32,000 bases of DNA from Candidatus Saccharimonadota bacterium (GTDB lineage: Bacteria; Patescibacteriota; Saccharimonadia; Saccharimonadales; UBA4665), in contig CP064992.1 in the NCBI GenBank assembly GCA_016699935.1, positions 840,001 through 872,000 of the forward strand, written 5' to 3'. Shown here in pieces: positions 19,103 to 21,309 of this stretch (position 1 is the stretch's first letter; every line of letters begins with the position of its first letter). Position numbers and translations under genes: made by a program. Below the pieces are notes generated by a model. That model had not been told where the DNA came from. It saw only the letters and a list, made by a program, of their open reading frames with translations, and did no database searches.

Positions 19103-19432
19103 CTACCGTTTCTTCGACTTTCCTAAAACTATGCCGGGGATTACTAACCCTTCGTGATCGATCAAGATGCTGATATCATGTTGTGGATCAGGCGATCCAC
19201 CGCCGTCATACGGACGAATAAGCAAACCAAACTCTTCCCCATCGGCGGAGTTAGGATTTTGATGATATAACGCAACTTGGTGAGTAGGGCTTGCGCCACA
19301 TGCCACACGAGTAGCGACCTCATCAGGTTTTCTTAGTATATCTGATGCGTGTGGTTTTGCCTCTTCGCTCGCCCGTGAGAGTTCGTCCAATAATAGGTAG
19401 CCAAAAGCCGTCGGTGTTTCAAAATGAGCCAT
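19103..19432 (-). CDS. Hypothetical protein (109 aa)
   Basis: I trimmed tracked ORF 19103..19540 to the ATG at 19430-19432 (MAHFETPTAF...), because the upstream 36 codons are the antisense-independent read-through of tRNA-Ser. Confidence 0.45.
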   Translation of the reverse strand: MAHFETPTAFGYLLLDELSRASEEAKPHASDILRKPDEVATRVACGASPTHQVALYHQNPNSADGEEFGLLIRPYDGGGSPDPQHDISILIDHEGLVIPGIVLGKSKKR

Positions 19433-19470: not shown

Positions 19471-19560
19471 GTGGCGGAGGGAGAGGGATTCGAACCCTCG
19501 ATACCCTTGCGAGTAAACCGCCTTTCCAAGGCGGCGCCATAGACCACTAGGCGACCCCTC
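19471..19560 (-). tRNA. tRNA-Ser (anticodon GGA), 90 nt, type II, CCA encoded
   Basis: Hand-folded from the reverse complement: GGAGGGG-TC-GCC-TAGTGGTCTAT-GGC-G-CCGCC-TTGGAAA-GGCGG-(17-nt variable arm)-C-GAGGG-TTCGAAT-CCCTC-TCCCTCC-G-CCA. Confidence 0.9.
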
Positions 19561-19566
19561 CGTGAT

Positions 19567-19809
19567 TCATCGGTTAACCAATGATTTAAATGCTCGACCA
19601 CCTTTGTATGATTTGATTTGCATCTCGCGGCGGTATGCTTCTTGCTTGGTTAAGCATATTTCAGTATACACAATTTTCCACGGAAGATAAGGTTTTGTGG
19701 ACCGCGTATAACCAGAATTATGCTGATGTAATCTACGATTTAAATCATCGCTATGACCTACGTAATATCGTGAAAAGTGTACGGATTGTATTATATAAAC
19801 ATAGAACAT
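19567..19809 (-). CDS. GIY-YIG nuclease-domain protein (80 aa, UPF0213/YhbQ-like, catalytic domain only)
   Basis: FYVYIIQS...YYVGHSDDLNRRLHQHNSG...YTRSTKPYLPWKIVYTEICLTKQEAYRREMQIKSY contains the GIY...YVG motifs, the conserved R and the E...K of the GIY-YIG fold. Confidence 0.85.
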   Translation of the reverse strand: MFYVYIIQSVHFSRYYVGHSDDLNRRLHQHNSGYTRSTKPYLPWKIVYTEICLTKQEAYRREMQIKSYKGGRAFKSLVNR

Positions 19810-19824
19810 GGATTATTACTTATT

Positions 19825-19903
19825 CGCCTTTTCCCGCCTAAAGGCGGGACCCCGCCAAAAGCGGTGGCCAAGGCGGCGCCATAGACCACTAGGCGACCCC
19901 TCC
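19825..19903 (-). pseudogene. Partial tRNA-Ser copy B: exact 5' half, a 36-nt hairpin insertion after G35, then 7 nt of the 3' half
   Basis: GGAGGGGTCGCCTAGTGGTCTATGGCGCCGCCTTGG[CCACCGCTTTTGGCGGGGTCCCGCCTTTAGGCGGGA]AAAGGCG, after which homology ends 15 nt before the GIY-YIG ATG. Confidence 0.7.
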
Positions 19904-19945
19904 GTATGTACTGATGGTAATTAATTATCACTCAAAGAGCAAGTA

Positions 19946-20129
19946 AAGGGATTCGACCTACCTCCGGTAGGCCCGGAACTTCTCTGCATCAGGCACAGCC
20001 TGACCTGGAAGATTCCCCTGCGAAATGCCACAGGCATTTCTCGCCTCGATGCAGTTGCCCGCAAACCGCCTTTTCCCGCTTAAAGGCGGTGGCCAAGGCG
20101 GCATTCGTAGGCTACTAGGCGACCTCTCC
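19946..20129 (-). pseudogene. Degenerate tRNA-Ser-like copy C with a 19-nt anticodon-loop insertion and an 87-nt three-hairpin insertion in the T arm; no 3' acceptor strand
   Basis: GGAGAGGTCGCCTAGTAGCCTACGAATGCCGCCTTGG[CCACCGCCTTTAAGCGGGA]AAAGGCGG-TTTGCGGGCAACTGCAT-CGAGG[87 nt, 19957-20043]TCGAATCCCTT. The D stem can no longer pair. Confidence 0.6.
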
Positions 20130-20437
20130 GTACAAAAATATTGTACCAACATTATCTAAATGACCAAATTCCAAGCGCTAATGACCAAGCAATTTACGAA
20201 TGACTGAGCCAGACGAGCGCTTGCAAATTCCAATGTTCAAAATTCAAAAATTCACCAAGTACGTGCTATTACTATAGCTCATTTGGTAGTCGGAGCTTTG
20301 TTGTGCTTGGAACATGTGACGTGAAGATTATTATTGCCAAGCTAGGCACGATAGGATGGTGTTGCGAAAATTACTTTGGAAAATATTCCGCCTGTGGTTG
20401 CGCCTCTGTTGCTTTAAGCGGTACACTAGAATCAAGC

Positions 20438-21309
20438 ATGTCTCTGATAGAACTAAAAGACGTCAGCAAACTGTACGGCTTCGGCGATGCCACGAGTGTG
20501 GCTCTTGACGAGGTTAGCCTGAAGATAGAAAAAGGAGAATGCGTTGCGGTCATGGGTCCCAGTGGCAGCGGTAAAAGCACACTGATGAATATGATTGGGC
20601 TTTTAGACCACCCAACGCACGGGGACTACCTCTTTGGTGGGAAGCGGGTCAGTCGGCTTGCGACGAATCGTCGGGCGCGGATTCGCCGTGACAAGATTGG
20701 ATTTATATTCCAGTCCTTTAACTTACTTGGGCGTTTAACCGCAATTGAAAACGTTGCCCTGCCTCTACTCTACCGTGGGTTCCCAACCACAAAACGCAAT
20801 CACGCTGCTCGGGGATGTTGGAACGTGTGGGCTTAACCGACAGGTGCTACTACTATCCGAGGCAACTTTCTGGTGGCCAAACGCAATGTGTAGCGATTGC
20901 GCGGGCGTTGGTTAACGAACCAGAAATCATCATTGCCGATGAGCCAACTGGCAACCTTGATACCGAAAGTTCTCGCCTTGTTATGGAACTGCTCGGCGAA
21001 ATTCACAAAAGTGGCAATACCATTATTTTCGTTACGCATAACCCAGAGCTAACTCGCTATGCGACGCGAGTGGTCTATATGCAGGATGGTCTCATTAAAC
21101 ATGATGAGCAAACCAAGTTAGGCGAAGTTGGCCGCTATGTTAGCAAGTTTATGTACAAGGTGCCGACTGCAACTGAGGAAGATGACTTGGCGGGTGTGTC
21201 TGCGTTAATGAAAATACGCCCTGAGAGTACGCCTTCTGACAGTAAGATCCAGAAGAAGGCACGGAAACAAAGTGCTAAGCGCAAGGCGAAACGAAAGGCA
21301 GAGGCATGA
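20438..21309 (+). CDS. ABC transporter ATP-binding protein (MacB/LolD-type), with one frame break
   Basis: Walker [10 protein letters not shown], signature LSGGQ and Walker B IIIADEPT. ORFs 20303..20836 and 20815..21309 join if one G is added at the G4 run 20810-20813. I place the start at the ATG at 20438 (MSLIELKDV). The C-terminal tail is lysine-rich. Confidence 0.85.

What the first reader, a model, noticed from the sequence alone, without database searches (positions are those of the whole stretch)
19471..20129. Intact tRNA-Ser(GGA) preceded by two nested partial copies of itself, with a GIY-YIG nuclease ORF exactly filling the gap
Seen in sequence: the intact tRNA-Ser is at 19471-19560 (minus strand). 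Exactly 343 bp upstream on the same strand lies a 38/38 identical copy of its 5' half (19868-19905 = 19525-19562). That copy covers 2 leader nt, the acceptor strand, the D arm and the anticodon stem through G35. The only coding content between the two repeats is an 80-aa GIY-YIG ORF (19567-19809). Its stop is 6 nt from the intact tRNA, and its ATG is 15 nt from the end of tRNA homology. A third, diverged copy (19946-20129; acceptor GGAGAGG, broken D stem) retains homology through the variable arm and T loop but lacks the 3' acceptor strand. Recombination between the 38-nt repeats would delete the cassette precisely and leave one intact tRNA.

Established knowledge: GIY-YIG is the catalytic fold of homing endonucleases. 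The free-standing GIY-YIG enzyme SegB of phage T4 resides in and promotes inheritance of the T4 tRNA gene cluster. Integrating elements commonly regenerate a tRNA gene by carrying a partial copy of it.

Inference: this is a minimal selfish cassette that uses the 5' half of a tRNA gene as its target or homology arm and rides on the tRNA promoter. The older copy C would be the scar of a previous round. A cassette that duplicates the 5' rather than the 3' part of a tRNA, and has no integrase, is not an arrangement I know to be described.
Basis: partly seen in the sequence, partly recalled or inferred. Interest (0 to 1): 0.75.

Follow-up and report, generated by a model that had tools for sequence, protein, structure and literature searches.

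The report
Nuclease cassette nested in tRNA gene
A serine tRNA gene in this Saccharibacteria genome carries a tiny nuclease gene wedged between a broken copy and an intact copy of the tRNA, and it is one member of a very large, apparently undescribed family of probably mobile cassettes that live in bacterial tRNA genes without destroying them.

Summary
The features are an intact tRNA-Ser(GGA) at 19472-19561 (-), an exact 38-nt copy of its 5' part at 19868-19905, an 80-aa GIY-YIG ORF between them, and an older broken copy C upstream.

This is one member of a very large family: 6,390 protein clusters, in several CPR phyla plus Bacteroidota and Ignavibacteriota, including cultured Melioribacter roseus. 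Of 86 ORFs sampled by protein similarity alone, 68 abut a co-oriented tRNA, mostly Ser or Tyr. On the other side of the ORF lies a truncated tRNA copy with the same covarying double hairpin in its D, anticodon or T loop.

Eight close relatives lack the cassette at this locus; one has it. The ORF is under strong purifying selection (dN/dS about 0.11) and is a bare SLX1/UPF0213-type nuclease domain.

Best reading: a selfish, recombination-driven (homing-like) cassette that always keeps one intact tRNA. Cleavage, target choice and the hairpin's role are inferred. I found no prior description. The closest analogues are phage SegB, fungal mitochondrial mORFs and double-hairpin elements.

The parts
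19472..19561 (-). Copy A: intact, functional tRNA-Ser(GGA) with encoded CCA
   Evidence: ARAGORN. Rfam tRNA 55 bits. 92-98% identical to the single tRNA-Ser(GGA) of relatives.
19562..19566 (-). 5-nt gap between the ORF stop codon and the tRNA 5' end
   Evidence: Sequence. In homologous cassettes this distance ranges from -47 to +48 nt, and the stop often lies inside the tRNA.
19567..19809 (-). 80-aa GIY-YIG nuclease ORF: a bare SLX1/UPF0213-type catalytic domain
   Evidence: Pfam PF01541 E = 1e-16. Catalytic residues are invariant in 27 homologues. PDB profile hits to UPF0213 and SLX1. AF2 pLDDT 95.8; Slx1 TM 0.76. Family dN/dS about 0.11.
19810..19824 (-). 15-nt A/T-rich spacer before the ATG, with no obvious Shine-Dalgarno sequence
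   Evidence: Sequence. By eye on a subset of the loci, the module-to-ATG distance is about 13-28 nt.
19825..19831 (-). Resumed tRNA homology, nt 36-42 (aaaggcg). Pairs with the 5' anticodon-stem strand to close the hairpin module.
   Evidence: Alignment and sequence. Three-way junction fold.
19832..19867 (-). 36-nt GC-rich double-hairpin module inserted between anticodon nt 35 and 36 of copy B
   Evidence: Motif found once in the window, 0 expected. Present in 37 of 97 GIY-YIG loci and 0 of 80 cassette-free loci. Covariation: 92% of cells paired against 31-54% in slid controls; 0 of 500 shuffles reach the observed score.
19868..19905 (-). Copy B: pseudo-tRNA 5' part (2 leader nt plus tRNA nt 1-35), 38/38 identical to copy A
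   Evidence: the repeat finder D1. Coordinates. Also 36/36 identical in L188 although the ORF DNA is only 69% identical.
19906..19936 (-). Spacer between copies C and B
   Evidence: Part of the 206-nt stretch that is 96.6% identical to L005.
19937..19958 (-). Copy C: T loop, T-stem 3' strand and a degenerate acceptor remnant
   Evidence: Alignments. No complementary 3' acceptor strand.
19959..20043 (-). 85-nt hairpin-rich insert between the T-stem 5' strand and the T loop of copy C. A second, different kind of loop insert.
   Evidence: Homologous elements in L005, L007, L006 and L188 keep the first hairpin through compensatory changes. No Rfam match.
20044..20073 (-). Copy C: tRNA nt 36-53 (anticodon-stem 3' strand, variable arm, T-stem 5' strand)
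   Evidence: 30/30 identical to the tRNA of L001, L002, L004, L005 and L006.
20074..20092 (-). Copy C: 19-nt single-hairpin remnant of the module, at the same anticodon 35/36 position
   Evidence: (D2, D3). L188 has a full 36-nt module at this position in its copy C'.
20093..20129 (-). Copy C: pseudo-tRNA 5' part with a decayed D arm
   Evidence: 68% identical to A. The D arm resembles the decayed 5' parts of L091 and L188.
20140..20145 (-). -10-like hexamer TACAAT, 10 nt upstream of copy C. Candidate promoter of the whole array.
   Evidence: By eye. Relatives have TATAAT or TATACT at the same distance from their tRNA or pseudo-tRNA start. The statistical test was inconclusive.

Best explanation
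The feature is one copy of a widespread family of nuclease cassettes nested in tRNA genes.

A cassette consists of:
- a truncated tRNA copy whose loop carries a conserved, roughly 35-nt GC-rich double hairpin;
- an 80-aa SLX1/UPF0213-type GIY-YIG nuclease ORF;
- an intact tRNA of the same kind. All parts are co-oriented.

Most likely it is a selfish element that spreads and persists by nuclease-initiated recombination, in the manner of homing. A break is made in or next to a tRNA gene. With so small a protein, the target is probably recognised by DNA structure rather than by a long sequence. The break is repaired from a cassette-bearing copy, with tRNA sequence as the homology arm. This copies the ORF and duplicates part of the tRNA, so one intact and essential tRNA always remains. 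The interrupted copy is left as a pseudo-tRNA.

In the window, B-ORF-A is the current generation. C is an older pseudo-tRNA whose ORF is gone and whose hairpin module has half-decayed.

Shown: the anatomy, its recurrence at many tRNA genes and in several phyla, presence/absence among close relatives, mosaic ancestry of the locus, purifying selection on the ORF, and structural selection on the hairpin.

Inferred: DNA cleavage, its target, repair-mediated copying, co-transcription with the tRNA, and the role of the hairpin.
For: 1. Association with tRNA genes. In loci chosen only by protein similarity, 68 of 86 distinct ORFs have a co-oriented tRNA within 130 nt, and most are within 20 nt. The tRNAs are Tyr-GTA (24), Ser-GGA (14), Ser-CGA (10), Ser-TGA (8), Ser-GCT (7), Thr (3), Pro (1) and Glu (1). 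More distant homologues abut Arg, Gly and Ser tRNAs.
2. The far side of the ORF carries a truncated tRNA copy with the hairpin module in the anticodon loop (about 27 cases), D loop (about 20) or T loop (4). L175 has one module in each loop.
3. The module travels with the ORF: 37 of 97 GIY-YIG loci against 0 of 80 cassette-free loci. It covaries.
4. Presence/absence. L002, L004, L006-L009, L012 and L014 have pyrH, tRNA-Ser and the ABC genes with no room for the ORF. L188, from the same MAG as L003, has the full C-B-ORF-A array.
5. Mosaic locus. Window 20073-19868 is 96.6% identical to L005, while pyrH DNA is 81% identical. tRNA A is 97.8% identical to L007's allele but differs from the window's own copy C in the variable arm. 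The ORF's best match anywhere is 73%.
6. Copy B is 36/36 identical to A in both the window and L188, although their ORFs are only 69% identical at the DNA level. So B is renewed or converted rather than decaying neutrally.
7. Tandem and nested arrays occur, including the 357-nt repeat in Melioribacter roseus and split pseudo-tRNAs flanking ORF plus tRNA in L128 and L143.
8. ORFs cluster by isoacceptor (45 of 68 against 20% by chance), but with switches.
9. dN/dS has a median of 0.11 and the catalytic residues are invariant.
10. Precedent: SegB cleavage plus microhomology recombination amplifies a tRNA segment (PMC13096335). Fungal mORFs carry replacement gene ends (PMC3630166).
Against: - No cleavage or transfer has been observed.
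- The 80-aa protein has no DNA-binding domain, so it is unclear how it would find a tRNA gene.
- The regenerated intact tRNA should still contain any target that lies within the tRNA.
- The ORF is as conserved as, or more conserved than, flanking housekeeping genes: 63-68% against 36-56% for L091 and L081. Together with dN/dS of 0.11, this fits a host-beneficial gene equally well.
- Window and L188 could have inherited the array vertically, since ORF DNA identity of 69% is close to the genome background of 72-78%.
- No copy is found in viral contigs.
- The tRNA nt 36-42 between the module and the ORF are not explained by a single simple insertion at position 35/36.
Confidence: 0.65

Rival explanations
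1. Domesticated or host-beneficial unit. The small nuclease and the tRNA-derived, hairpin-bearing RNA form a functional pair. Examples would be an RNA-regulated or RNA-guided nuclease, a tRNA quality-control or repair factor, or a decoy against tRNA-targeting toxins. The unit would be co-transcribed with the tRNA and inherited mostly vertically, with occasional duplication.
For: Strong purifying selection. The ORF is more conserved than flanking genes in the L091 and L081 comparisons. It is strictly co-oriented with, and abuts, the tRNA. The hairpin covaries like a functional RNA. Copy B stays identical to the tRNA 5' part over long divergence. ORFs track isoacceptors.
Against: The distribution among close relatives is patchy at one locus. 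Tandem arrays and multiple decayed generations exist. The module lies 5' of the ORF in some cassettes and 3' in others, which argues against a fixed 5'-UTR role. There is no meaningful match to known defence components. Many pseudo-tRNA parts are decayed. This reading is not mutually exclusive with mobility.
Confidence: 0.2
2. Static arrangement: an ordinary, vertically inherited small gene that happens to lie next to neutrally decaying tandem tRNA duplicates.
For: Window and L188 share the array, with ORF divergence close to the genome background.
Against: The same ORF-tRNA-pseudo-tRNA-hairpin architecture is found at about a dozen different tRNA species and in distant phyla. Copy B is 36/36 conserved where a neutral sequence would have about 9 changes. 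Eight relatives lack the cassette. The locus is mosaic.
Confidence: 0.04
3. Scars of an integrase-type element (phage or genomic island) that integrated into the tRNA gene and duplicated part of it as an att site.
For: Relatives carry duplicated tRNA 3' ends 130-200 nt downstream of the intact tRNA (L004, L006, L007, L091, L188). These resemble att repeats.
Against: There is no integrase in any cassette. The duplicated part here is the 5' part, broken in the anticodon loop. The interval is 342 bp and holds only the nuclease ORF. The architecture is conserved as such across phyla. This reading may apply to the separate 3'-fragment elements, not to the cassette.
Confidence: 0.03
4. A tRNA intron (group I or archaeal-type) carrying a homing endonuclease ORF.
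For: The insertion point in the anticodon loop is where bacterial group I tRNA introns sit (established knowledge; reviewed in PMC3984707).
Against: No intron ribozyme or any other Rfam family matches. The interrupted copy is truncated, so it cannot be spliced into a tRNA. A complete, uninterrupted tRNA follows the ORF.
Confidence: 0.02
5. Assembly artefact that duplicated the tRNA 5' half.
For: Several relatives' contigs break inside or next to this tRNA (L001, L003, L005, L010). So the repeats do trouble assemblers.
Against: The same architecture occurs in more than 60 independent assemblies, including the finished genome of Melioribacter roseus. The window comes from a 1.23-Mb contig.
Confidence: 0.01

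Closest known systems
Phage T4/T6 SegB and other free-standing GIY-YIG homing endonucleases
   Same: GIY-YIG catalytic domain. Free-standing, with no intron or intein. Located among tRNA genes, and phage SegB homologues are significantly co-localised with tRNAs. Cleavage followed by recombination at microhomology between the tRNA 5' region and the endonuclease gene produces repeated tRNA-containing segments (PMC2330249, PMC13096335).
   Different: SegB is a phage protein of about 220 aa (length from my own knowledge) with a DNA-binding part. The protein here is 80 aa, is cellular, has no match in PHROGs or in viral contigs, and is closer to UPF0213/SLX1. SegB loci have no conserved hairpin module and no obligatory truncated tRNA copy.
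Fungal mitochondrial mobile ORF elements (mORFs; Allomyces atp6, Glomus atp6/atp9/cox2/nad3)
   Same: An endonuclease ORF (LAGLIDADG or GIY-YIG) inserted in a host gene brings a replacement copy of part of that gene. The gene stays functional, and the displaced native part remains as a fragment beyond the ORF. The gene ends are mosaic or horizontally acquired (PMC3630166).
   Different: The hosts are protein-coding mitochondrial genes, and the replaced part is the 3' end. Here the host is a bacterial tRNA gene, either end can be the replaced one, and a conserved double hairpin marks the interrupted copy.
Double-hairpin elements (DHEs) of chytrid and Schizosaccharomyces mitochondrial DNA
   Same: Short GC-rich elements in AT-rich genomes that fold into two adjacent stem-loops, are described as potentially mobile, and are found in intergenic regions and inside an rRNA gene (PMC10085805, citing Paquin et al. 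1996-2000).
   Different: Sequence homology was not tested. DHEs are dispersed through the genome. The module here was seen only inside tRNA-derived sequence next to the nuclease ORF: 1 hit in the 32-kb window and 0 in about 800 kb of cassette-free loci.
Insertion sequences in CPR rRNA genes that encode GIY-YIG proteins
   Same: They involve CPR bacteria and ORFs of the GIY-YIG family inside structural-RNA genes. The insertions resemble neither group I nor group II introns and lie at the tops or bases of stem-loops (PMC11270868).
   Different: [quoted passage not shown] It does not mention tRNA genes. Whether the proteins or hairpins are the same family was not tested.
SLX1 / UPF0213 (YhbQ-like) structure-specific GIY-YIG nucleases
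   Same: Best sequence and fold matches: BH0048 (1zg2) E = 3.5e-12, EF2693 (1ywl), and the Slx1 nuclease domain at TM 0.76 and rmsd 1.4 A. The domain-only size matches UPF0213.
   Different: SLX1 has a C-terminal RING/zinc-finger domain and works with SLX4 (established knowledge). No tRNA-gene association is known to me for UPF0213, and none was found in the library.
Integrative elements that target tRNA genes and regenerate them
   Same: They insert into an essential tRNA gene and compensate by carrying a copy of the displaced part.
   Different: They use an integrase and duplicate the 3' end as an att site (established knowledge). Here there is no integrase, and the break is in a loop, usually with the 5' part duplicated.

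Membership tests
GIY-YIG nuclease superfamily (Pfam PF01541) | GIY and YIG motifs plus the catalytic Arg, His/Tyr and Glu, in a beta-beta-alpha-beta-alpha fold | tested here: met
   Pfam E = 1e-16. Y5, Y16, G18, R26, H30 and E62 are invariant in 27 homologues. AF2 model pLDDT 95.8 with order E-E-H-E-H-H.
UPF0213 / SLX1-like subgroup | Closest sequence and structure relatives are UPF0213 proteins and the SLX1 nuclease domain | tested here: met
   Profile against PDB: 1zg2 3.5e-12, 1ywl 4e-9, SLX1 about 1e-4, I-TevI 5e-4. Foldseek: 1zg2, then 7cq3_A at TM 0.76.
SLX1 orthologue | C-terminal RING/zinc-finger domain and an SLX4 partner | tested here: not met
   The protein is 80 aa and the GIY-YIG domain covers residues 1-67. 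There is no further domain.
Classical homing endonuclease (I-TevI / SegB type) | Nuclease domain joined to a DNA-binding domain that reads a long target site | tested here: not met
   The protein is domain-only. No PHROGs family for P0001. NCBIfam group I intron endonuclease only E = 0.008, below its cut-off, for one homologue.
Classical homing endonuclease (I-TevI / SegB type) | Presence/absence polymorphism at a conserved genomic site among related genomes | tested here: met
   Absent in L002, L004, L006-L009, L012 and L014. Present in the window, L188, L091 and L081 at the same pyrH/ABC locus.
Classical homing endonuclease (I-TevI / SegB type) | The enzyme cleaves the cassette-free allele and the gene is copied into it | not testable with these tools
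   Needs purified protein and a homing assay.
Group I intron in a tRNA anticodon loop | Group I ribozyme core, and a tRNA that is continuous once the insert is removed | tested here: not met
   No Rfam intron hit at E <= 10 or E <= 1 in 8 loci. The interrupted copy lacks everything after nt 42.
Integrase-type tRNA-targeting island | An integrase gene, and a direct repeat of the tRNA 3' end | tested here: not met
   The only ORF with family support between the repeats is the nuclease. The repeat is the 5' part. No integrase appears in any of the cassette loci whose called genes were listed.
Mobile ORF with replacement gene end (mORF-like) | Endonuclease ORF inside a gene, a duplicated gene part that keeps the gene intact, and a displaced fragment beyond the ORF | tested here: met
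   Window B-ORF-A. The mirror arrangement, tRNA-ORF-3' fragment, occurs in L086, L121 and L176.
Mobile ORF with replacement gene end (mORF-like) | The replacement part is of foreign origin, more divergent than the native fragment | tested here: inconclusive
   The variable arm of tRNA A is L007-like, while copy C keeps the allele of L005 and L004. This is suggestive, but ancestral polymorphism is not excluded.
Double-hairpin element (DHE-like) | A short GC-rich element folding into two adjacent stem-loops, with the structure conserved | tested here: met
   33 modules: 92.3% of cells paired, 24 double-sided changes against 6.3 in shuffles, 0 of 500. Folds shown.
Double-hairpin element (DHE-like) | Many dispersed copies per genome | tested here: not met
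   One motif hit in the 32-kb window. None in 80 cassette-free loci. Whole genomes could not be scanned.

The most novel reading that the evidence does not exclude
The double hairpin and the minimal SLX1-like nuclease may together form a new kind of mobile system that picks its target by nucleic-acid structure rather than by sequence. The nuclease would cut loops of tRNA-gene DNA folded as a cloverleaf or cruciform, for example on the displaced strand of a transcription R-loop. The roughly 35-nt module, alone or with the ORF, would be copied into that loop. This would explain several observations:
- Modules sit precisely in the D, anticodon and T loops.
- The anticodon junction is at nt 34-36 whatever the anticodon.
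- An 80-aa protein with no DNA-binding domain would suffice.

A sub-variant is that the pseudo-tRNA-plus-hairpin transcript acts as an RNA guide or scaffold for the nuclease. The same principle might underlie the unexplained GIY-YIG insertions in CPR rRNA genes.
Probability: 0.25. Interest if true: 0.9.

Novelty: new variant of a known kind. Interest (0 to 1): 0.75.

Why it matters
If correct, a very large and so far unnoticed class of elements shapes tRNA loci in ultra-small CPR bacteria and in Bacteroidota and Ignavibacteriota. The family has 6,390 protein clusters at 90% identity.

- **Biology of selfish elements.** It shows how an element can occupy an essential single-copy gene in a minimal genome without killing the host, by always regenerating the gene.
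- **A minimal system.** It links an 80-aa structure-specific-type nuclease to a conserved three-way-junction hairpin module. This is a minimal system whose target rule is unknown and may be new.
- **Practical consequences.** These cassettes create pseudo-tRNA fragments and repeats that break metagenomic assemblies. Several relatives' contigs end inside this tRNA. They can also mislead tRNA annotation.
- **Link to an open question.** They may relate to the unexplained non-intron GIY-YIG insertions in CPR rRNA genes.
- **Testability.** A cultured host with a finished genome, Melioribacter roseus P3M-2, carries a tandem array of them, so the mechanism can be tested directly.

Tried and rejected
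- **Exact-sequence look-up of the window ORF**. It found nothing, apparently because the stop codon was included in the reference. The protein was later found as P0001.
- **Rfam** at permissive thresholds on the window region and on 8 loci. Only the intact tRNAs matched. There is no family for the hairpin module, the pseudo-tRNAs or the T-loop insert.
- **NCBIfam, PHROGs and PADLOC**. No meaningful family beyond the generic GIY-YIG domain.
- **Viral contig scan** with the family profile. No relatives, so I dropped a phage origin.
- **Promoter test.** The consensus scan of the window was unremarkable. A paired comparison of -10 boxes upstream of the pseudo-tRNA against the intact tRNA in 42 loci gave p = 0.84. 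'Rides on the tRNA promoter' therefore stays untested. The -10 boxes seen by eye before the pseudo-tRNA in Saccharibacteria loci are anecdotal.
- **Literature.** Eight searches found no description of GIY-YIG or UPF0213 genes nested in bacterial tRNA genes. The library lacks most subscription journals, so absence there is not proof.
- **Readings considered and rejected:** tmRNA or a permuted tRNA for copy C (ARAGORN and Rfam negative); a self-cleaving ribozyme in the module (no Rfam hit, no hammerhead core); a simple single insertion of module plus ORF at nt 35/36 (contradicted by the tRNA nt 36-42/49 lying between module and ORF, and by modules sitting on either side of the ORF).
Full report
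**1. What is in the window**

On the minus strand, ARAGORN and Rfam both find an intact tRNA-Ser(GGA) at 19472-19561. An exact 38-nt direct repeat (19526-19563 = 19868-19905, spacing 342) reproduces two leader bases plus tRNA nucleotides 1-35. It ends at the second base of the anticodon. Between the repeats lies an 80-aa ORF (19567-19809) that matches Pfam GIY-YIG at E = 1e-16. A third, diverged tRNA-like copy C runs from 20129 to 19937.

- After nt 35, copy B continues with a 36-nt GC-rich double hairpin (19832-19867). It then resumes tRNA nt 36-42 (19825-19831). Fifteen nt later comes the ATG.
- Copy C has a 19-nt single-hairpin remnant of the same insert at the same anticodon position (20074-20092).
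- Copy C also carries a different 85-nt hairpin-rich insert exactly at the start of its T loop (19959-20043).

**2. Origin and relatives at the same locus**

The flanking pyrH gene places the window in Saccharibacteria (TM7, a CPR lineage). I recovered 80 syntenic loci, and none contains the ORF by tblastn.

In eight close relatives (L002, L004, L006-L009, L012, L014) a single tRNA-Ser(GGA) lies between pyrH and the ABC-transporter genes, with no room for an 80-aa ORF. These are cassette-free alleles.

L005 has a C-like copy without the hairpin, the same spacer, and an uninterrupted tRNA. Window 20073-19868 is 96.6% identical to L005 over 206 nt, whereas pyrH DNA is 81% identical. Relative to L005, the window differs by the 342-bp cassette and by a replaced 5' patch in C.

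The closest homologue of the ORF anywhere (P0028, 73%) comes from the same MAG as L003. It sits in a complete C'-B'-ORF-A' array next to the same ABC genes, and C' there carries a full double hairpin. More distant Saccharibacteria (L091, L081) also have a cassette at this locus.

The locus is mosaic:
- C, the spacer and B are L005-like.
- tRNA A is 97.8% identical to L007's allele and differs from the window's own copy C in the variable arm.
- The ORF is unlike any other known sequence.

**3. The ORF family lives in tRNA genes**

I fetched contexts for four homologues. Every one showed the ORF co-oriented with, and 1-35 nt from, a tRNA: Ser-GGA, Ser-GCT or Tyr-GTA.

I then ran a metagenome scan with the family profile. 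It selects loci by a peptide pattern only and returned 80 more loci. Over all loci there are 86 distinct ORFs.
- 68 have a co-oriented tRNA within 130 nt. These are Tyr-GTA 24, Ser-GGA 14, Ser-CGA 10, Ser-TGA 8, Ser-GCT 7, Thr 3, Pro 1 and Glu 1.
- Most of the other 18 are at contig ends or are second ORFs in tandem arrays.
- The stop codon is typically 0-20 nt from the tRNA. In many loci it lies inside the first 15-23 nt of the tRNA.

More distant homologues (44-60% identical) abut Arg-TCT, Gly-GCC and Ser-GGA tRNAs.

A profile search finds 6,390 clusters at E <= 1e-12. The names given by sources come from Saccharibacteria, Magasanikbacteria, Buchananbacteria, Nomurabacteria and Parcubacteria, and also from Bacteroidota, Ignavibacteriaceae and Melioribacter roseus.

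The finished genome of M. roseus P3M-2 has a 357-nt tandem repeat. Each unit is a spacer, then tRNA-Ser(GCT) nt 1-21, then the module, then nt 22-35, then the ORF. There are two full units plus a truncated one, ending in the intact tRNA. A Bacteroidota MAG (L187) shows the same layout plus older fragments.

**4. The double-hairpin module**

On the side of the ORF away from the intact tRNA there is almost always a truncated tRNA copy containing CCACCGCC-N4-GGCGG-GGTC-CCGCC-N4-GGCGGGA or a close variant.

- **Specificity.** A strict pattern hits once in the window (0.00 expected). It hits in 37 of 97 GIY-YIG loci and in none of the 80 cassette-free loci.
- **Position.** The module sits in a loop of the pseudo-tRNA: the anticodon loop between nt 34-36 (about 27 distinct cases, across seven different anticodons), the D loop (about 20), or the T loop (4). 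L175 has one module in each of the three loops, and L113 has two.
- **Structure.** On 33 modules the two helices are 92.3% paired, against 31-54% when the partner columns are slid. There are 24 double-sided changes against 6.3 in shuffles (0 of 500). The closing pair of hairpin 2 occurs as C-G, G-C and U-A. With the remaining anticodon stem it folds into a three-way junction, as RNA or as single-stranded DNA.
- **Known families.** Rfam has none for it.
- **Arrangement.** The module is 5' of the ORF in 'tRNA-downstream' cassettes and 3' of it in mirror-image cassettes (L086, L121, L176). Its orientation relative to the tRNA stays the same. A fixed 5'-UTR function is therefore unlikely.
- **Split pseudo-tRNAs.** In about 7 of 54 loci the 3' part of a module-bearing pseudo-tRNA lies beyond the intact tRNA. 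The ORF and tRNA are then flanked by two modules (L128, L143, L111).

**5. The protein**

The catalytic GIY-YIG residues are invariant. dN/dS between 15 moderately diverged pairs has a median of 0.11. The AlphaFold model is confident (pLDDT 95.8) and consists of the catalytic domain only.

By sequence and fold, its nearest solved relatives are the UPF0213 proteins BH0048 and EF2693 and the SLX1 nuclease domain (TM 0.76, rmsd 1.4 A). The I-TevI and UvrC domains are more distant.

It matches no phage protein family or defence model meaningfully. No homologue was found in viral contigs.

**6. Evidence on dynamics**

- ORFs cluster by the isoacceptor they accompany: 45 of 68 nearest neighbours, against about 20% by chance. 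There are clear switches among Ser, Tyr, Thr, Pro and Glu. One pair is 87% identical at the DNA level yet sits at Ser-CGA in one locus and Ser-TGA in the other.
- Copy B is 36/36 identical to the intact tRNA in both the window and L188, although their ORFs are only 69% identical at the DNA level and the background is 72-78%. Many other loci also have perfect 35-36-nt copies. A neutral fragment would have decayed, as copy C has. B is therefore renewed by re-insertion, converted by copy A, or selected as a homology arm.
- The decayed D arm and the hairpin in C form a patch that is absent from the otherwise 96.6%-identical L005. This is what co-conversion of a donor's flank would produce.
- Contigs of several relatives end inside this tRNA (L001, L005, L010).

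**7. Most likely mechanism**

This is a selfish cassette maintained and spread by nuclease-initiated recombination. The steps below are inferred, not shown.
1. A break is made in or next to a tRNA gene.
2. It is repaired from a cassette-bearing template, with the tRNA itself as the homology arm.
3. The ORF is copied together with a duplicate of part of the tRNA.
4. One intact tRNA survives, which is essential in these small genomes.
5. The interrupted copy persists as a pseudo-tRNA.

Repeated rounds or unequal recombination would give nested generations (window C, then B), tandem arrays (M. roseus) and precise losses (L005-like alleles).

There are experimental precedents.
- Phage SegB cleaves in a tRNA cluster. 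Recombination at microhomology between the tRNA 5' region and the segB 3' region amplifies the segment (PMC2330249, PMC13096335).
- Fungal mitochondrial mORFs carry replacement gene ends (PMC3630166).

The weak points are the target rule and the hairpin's role. An 80-aa SLX1-type domain is more plausibly structure-specific than sequence-specific. The modules' strict placement in tRNA loops suggests structure-guided action, but this is speculation.

**8. Rivals**

- **Host-beneficial nuclease plus tRNA-derived RNA pair (0.2).** It fits the strong constraint on the ORF, the hairpin and copy B. It does not explain the patchiness, the arrays, the decayed generations or the two module orientations relative to the ORF. 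It could coexist with mobility.
- **Static duplication, integrase scars, a tRNA intron, or an assembly artefact.** Each is contradicted by specific tests listed in the rival section.

**9. Comparison with what is known, and novelty**

The principle is known: an endonuclease gene that occupies a gene and brings a replacement part. So is the SegB-tRNA association. GC-rich double-hairpin elements are known in fungal mitochondria (PMC10085805). GIY-YIG ORFs in non-intron insertions of CPR rRNA genes have been reported without a mechanism (PMC11270868).

Eight literature searches found nothing on four points:
- a cellular, cross-phylum family nested in tRNA genes;
- its minimal SLX1/UPF0213-type nuclease;
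- the conserved loop-seeking module;
- the rule that an intact tRNA is always regenerated.

I therefore rate this as a new variant of a known kind. The library lacks most subscription journals, so an existing description cannot be excluded.

**10. Verdict**

Interest is 0.75. The pattern is large, clean and testable in a cultured organism.

Noticed in passing
window 19959-20043 (-); L005 2349-2433; L007 7004-7125; L006 1700-1815; L188 2261-2344: A second kind of structured insert of about 85-100 nt, with no ORF, sits exactly between the T-stem 5' strand and the T loop of a tRNA-Ser pseudo-copy. Its first hairpin keeps pairing through compensatory changes (GAAATGCC/GGCATTTC, GAGTCGCC/GGCGGCTC, GGTTTGCC/GGCAAGCC). 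In L006, L007 and L188 it lies downstream of the intact tRNA and its terminator hairpin, followed by a duplicated tRNA 3' end. There is no Rfam match.
   Followed up: partly
L004 6830-6999; L091 2880-3018; L147 1990-2050; L188 3030-3170: Another conserved stretch of about 130 nt lies between the tRNA-Ser terminator and a short tRNA 3'-end fragment (atccctctccctccgcca). L004 and L091 share 'gaagcgaacgaagggttcggtgaagcgag' although their genomes are distant. It could be an att-like scar or a third type of element. Unexplained.
   Followed up: no
L002, L004, L009 versus L005-L008, L012, L014 (tRNA-Ser next to pyrH): The tRNA-Ser(GGA) gene is on the same strand as pyrH in some close relatives and on the opposite strand in others. 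T-arm-like fragments also occur on the opposite strand (for example 'agggatttgaaccc' in L091 and L081). The locus undergoes inversions as well as insertions.
   Followed up: no
window 20303-21309 (+): The ABC-transporter ATPase gene (MacB-type partner) is split into two overlapping ORFs, 20303-20836 and 20815-21309. Walker A is in the first, and LSGGQ and Walker B are in the second. Relatives encode one 274-293-aa protein. This is a frameshift near 20815-20836: either a pseudogene or a sequencing error.
   Followed up: partly
L001 (ends at tRNA nt 32), L003 (ends at pyrH), L005 (starts inside the C-like copy), L010 (ends inside the tRNA): Contigs of several related MAGs terminate inside or beside this tRNA-Ser. 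This is what repeated tRNA halves would do to short-read assemblies. For L003 the missing part is on another contig (L188) and does carry a cassette, so some apparently uninformative relatives may also be cassette-bearing.
   Followed up: partly
L185/L186 = Melioribacter roseus P3M-2 CP003557.1, about 2580418-2584017: A cultured organism with a finished genome carries a 357-nt tandem array of two full cassette units plus a truncated third, upstream of tRNA-Ser(GCT). Each unit includes a promoter-like spacer (TTGAGT..TAAAAT). This makes it a ready experimental system.
   Followed up: partly
L175 1296-1500; L113 420-545: L175 has a pseudo-tRNA carrying one double-hairpin module in each of its D, anticodon and T loops. 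L113 has a 3' fragment with modules in both the anticodon and T loops. Modules therefore accumulate specifically in the loops of dead tRNA copies.
   Followed up: partly
L100, L123, L126, L131, L133-L136, L143-L146, L148, L163-L174, L188: In many cassettes the ORF's last 3-8 codons and its stop codon are encoded by the first 10-23 nt of the intact tRNA. RNase P cleavage of a co-transcript would then remove the stop codon. This could limit nuclease expression to unprocessed precursors.
   Followed up: no
window 19103-19432 (-): About 500 nt separate tRNA-Ser from pyrH here, against 30-60 nt in L002, L004 and L005. The stretch holds an uncharacterised ORF (MAHFETPTAF...) with no DNA similarity to the corresponding interval of L007. 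This is another variable segment of the locus.
   Followed up: no
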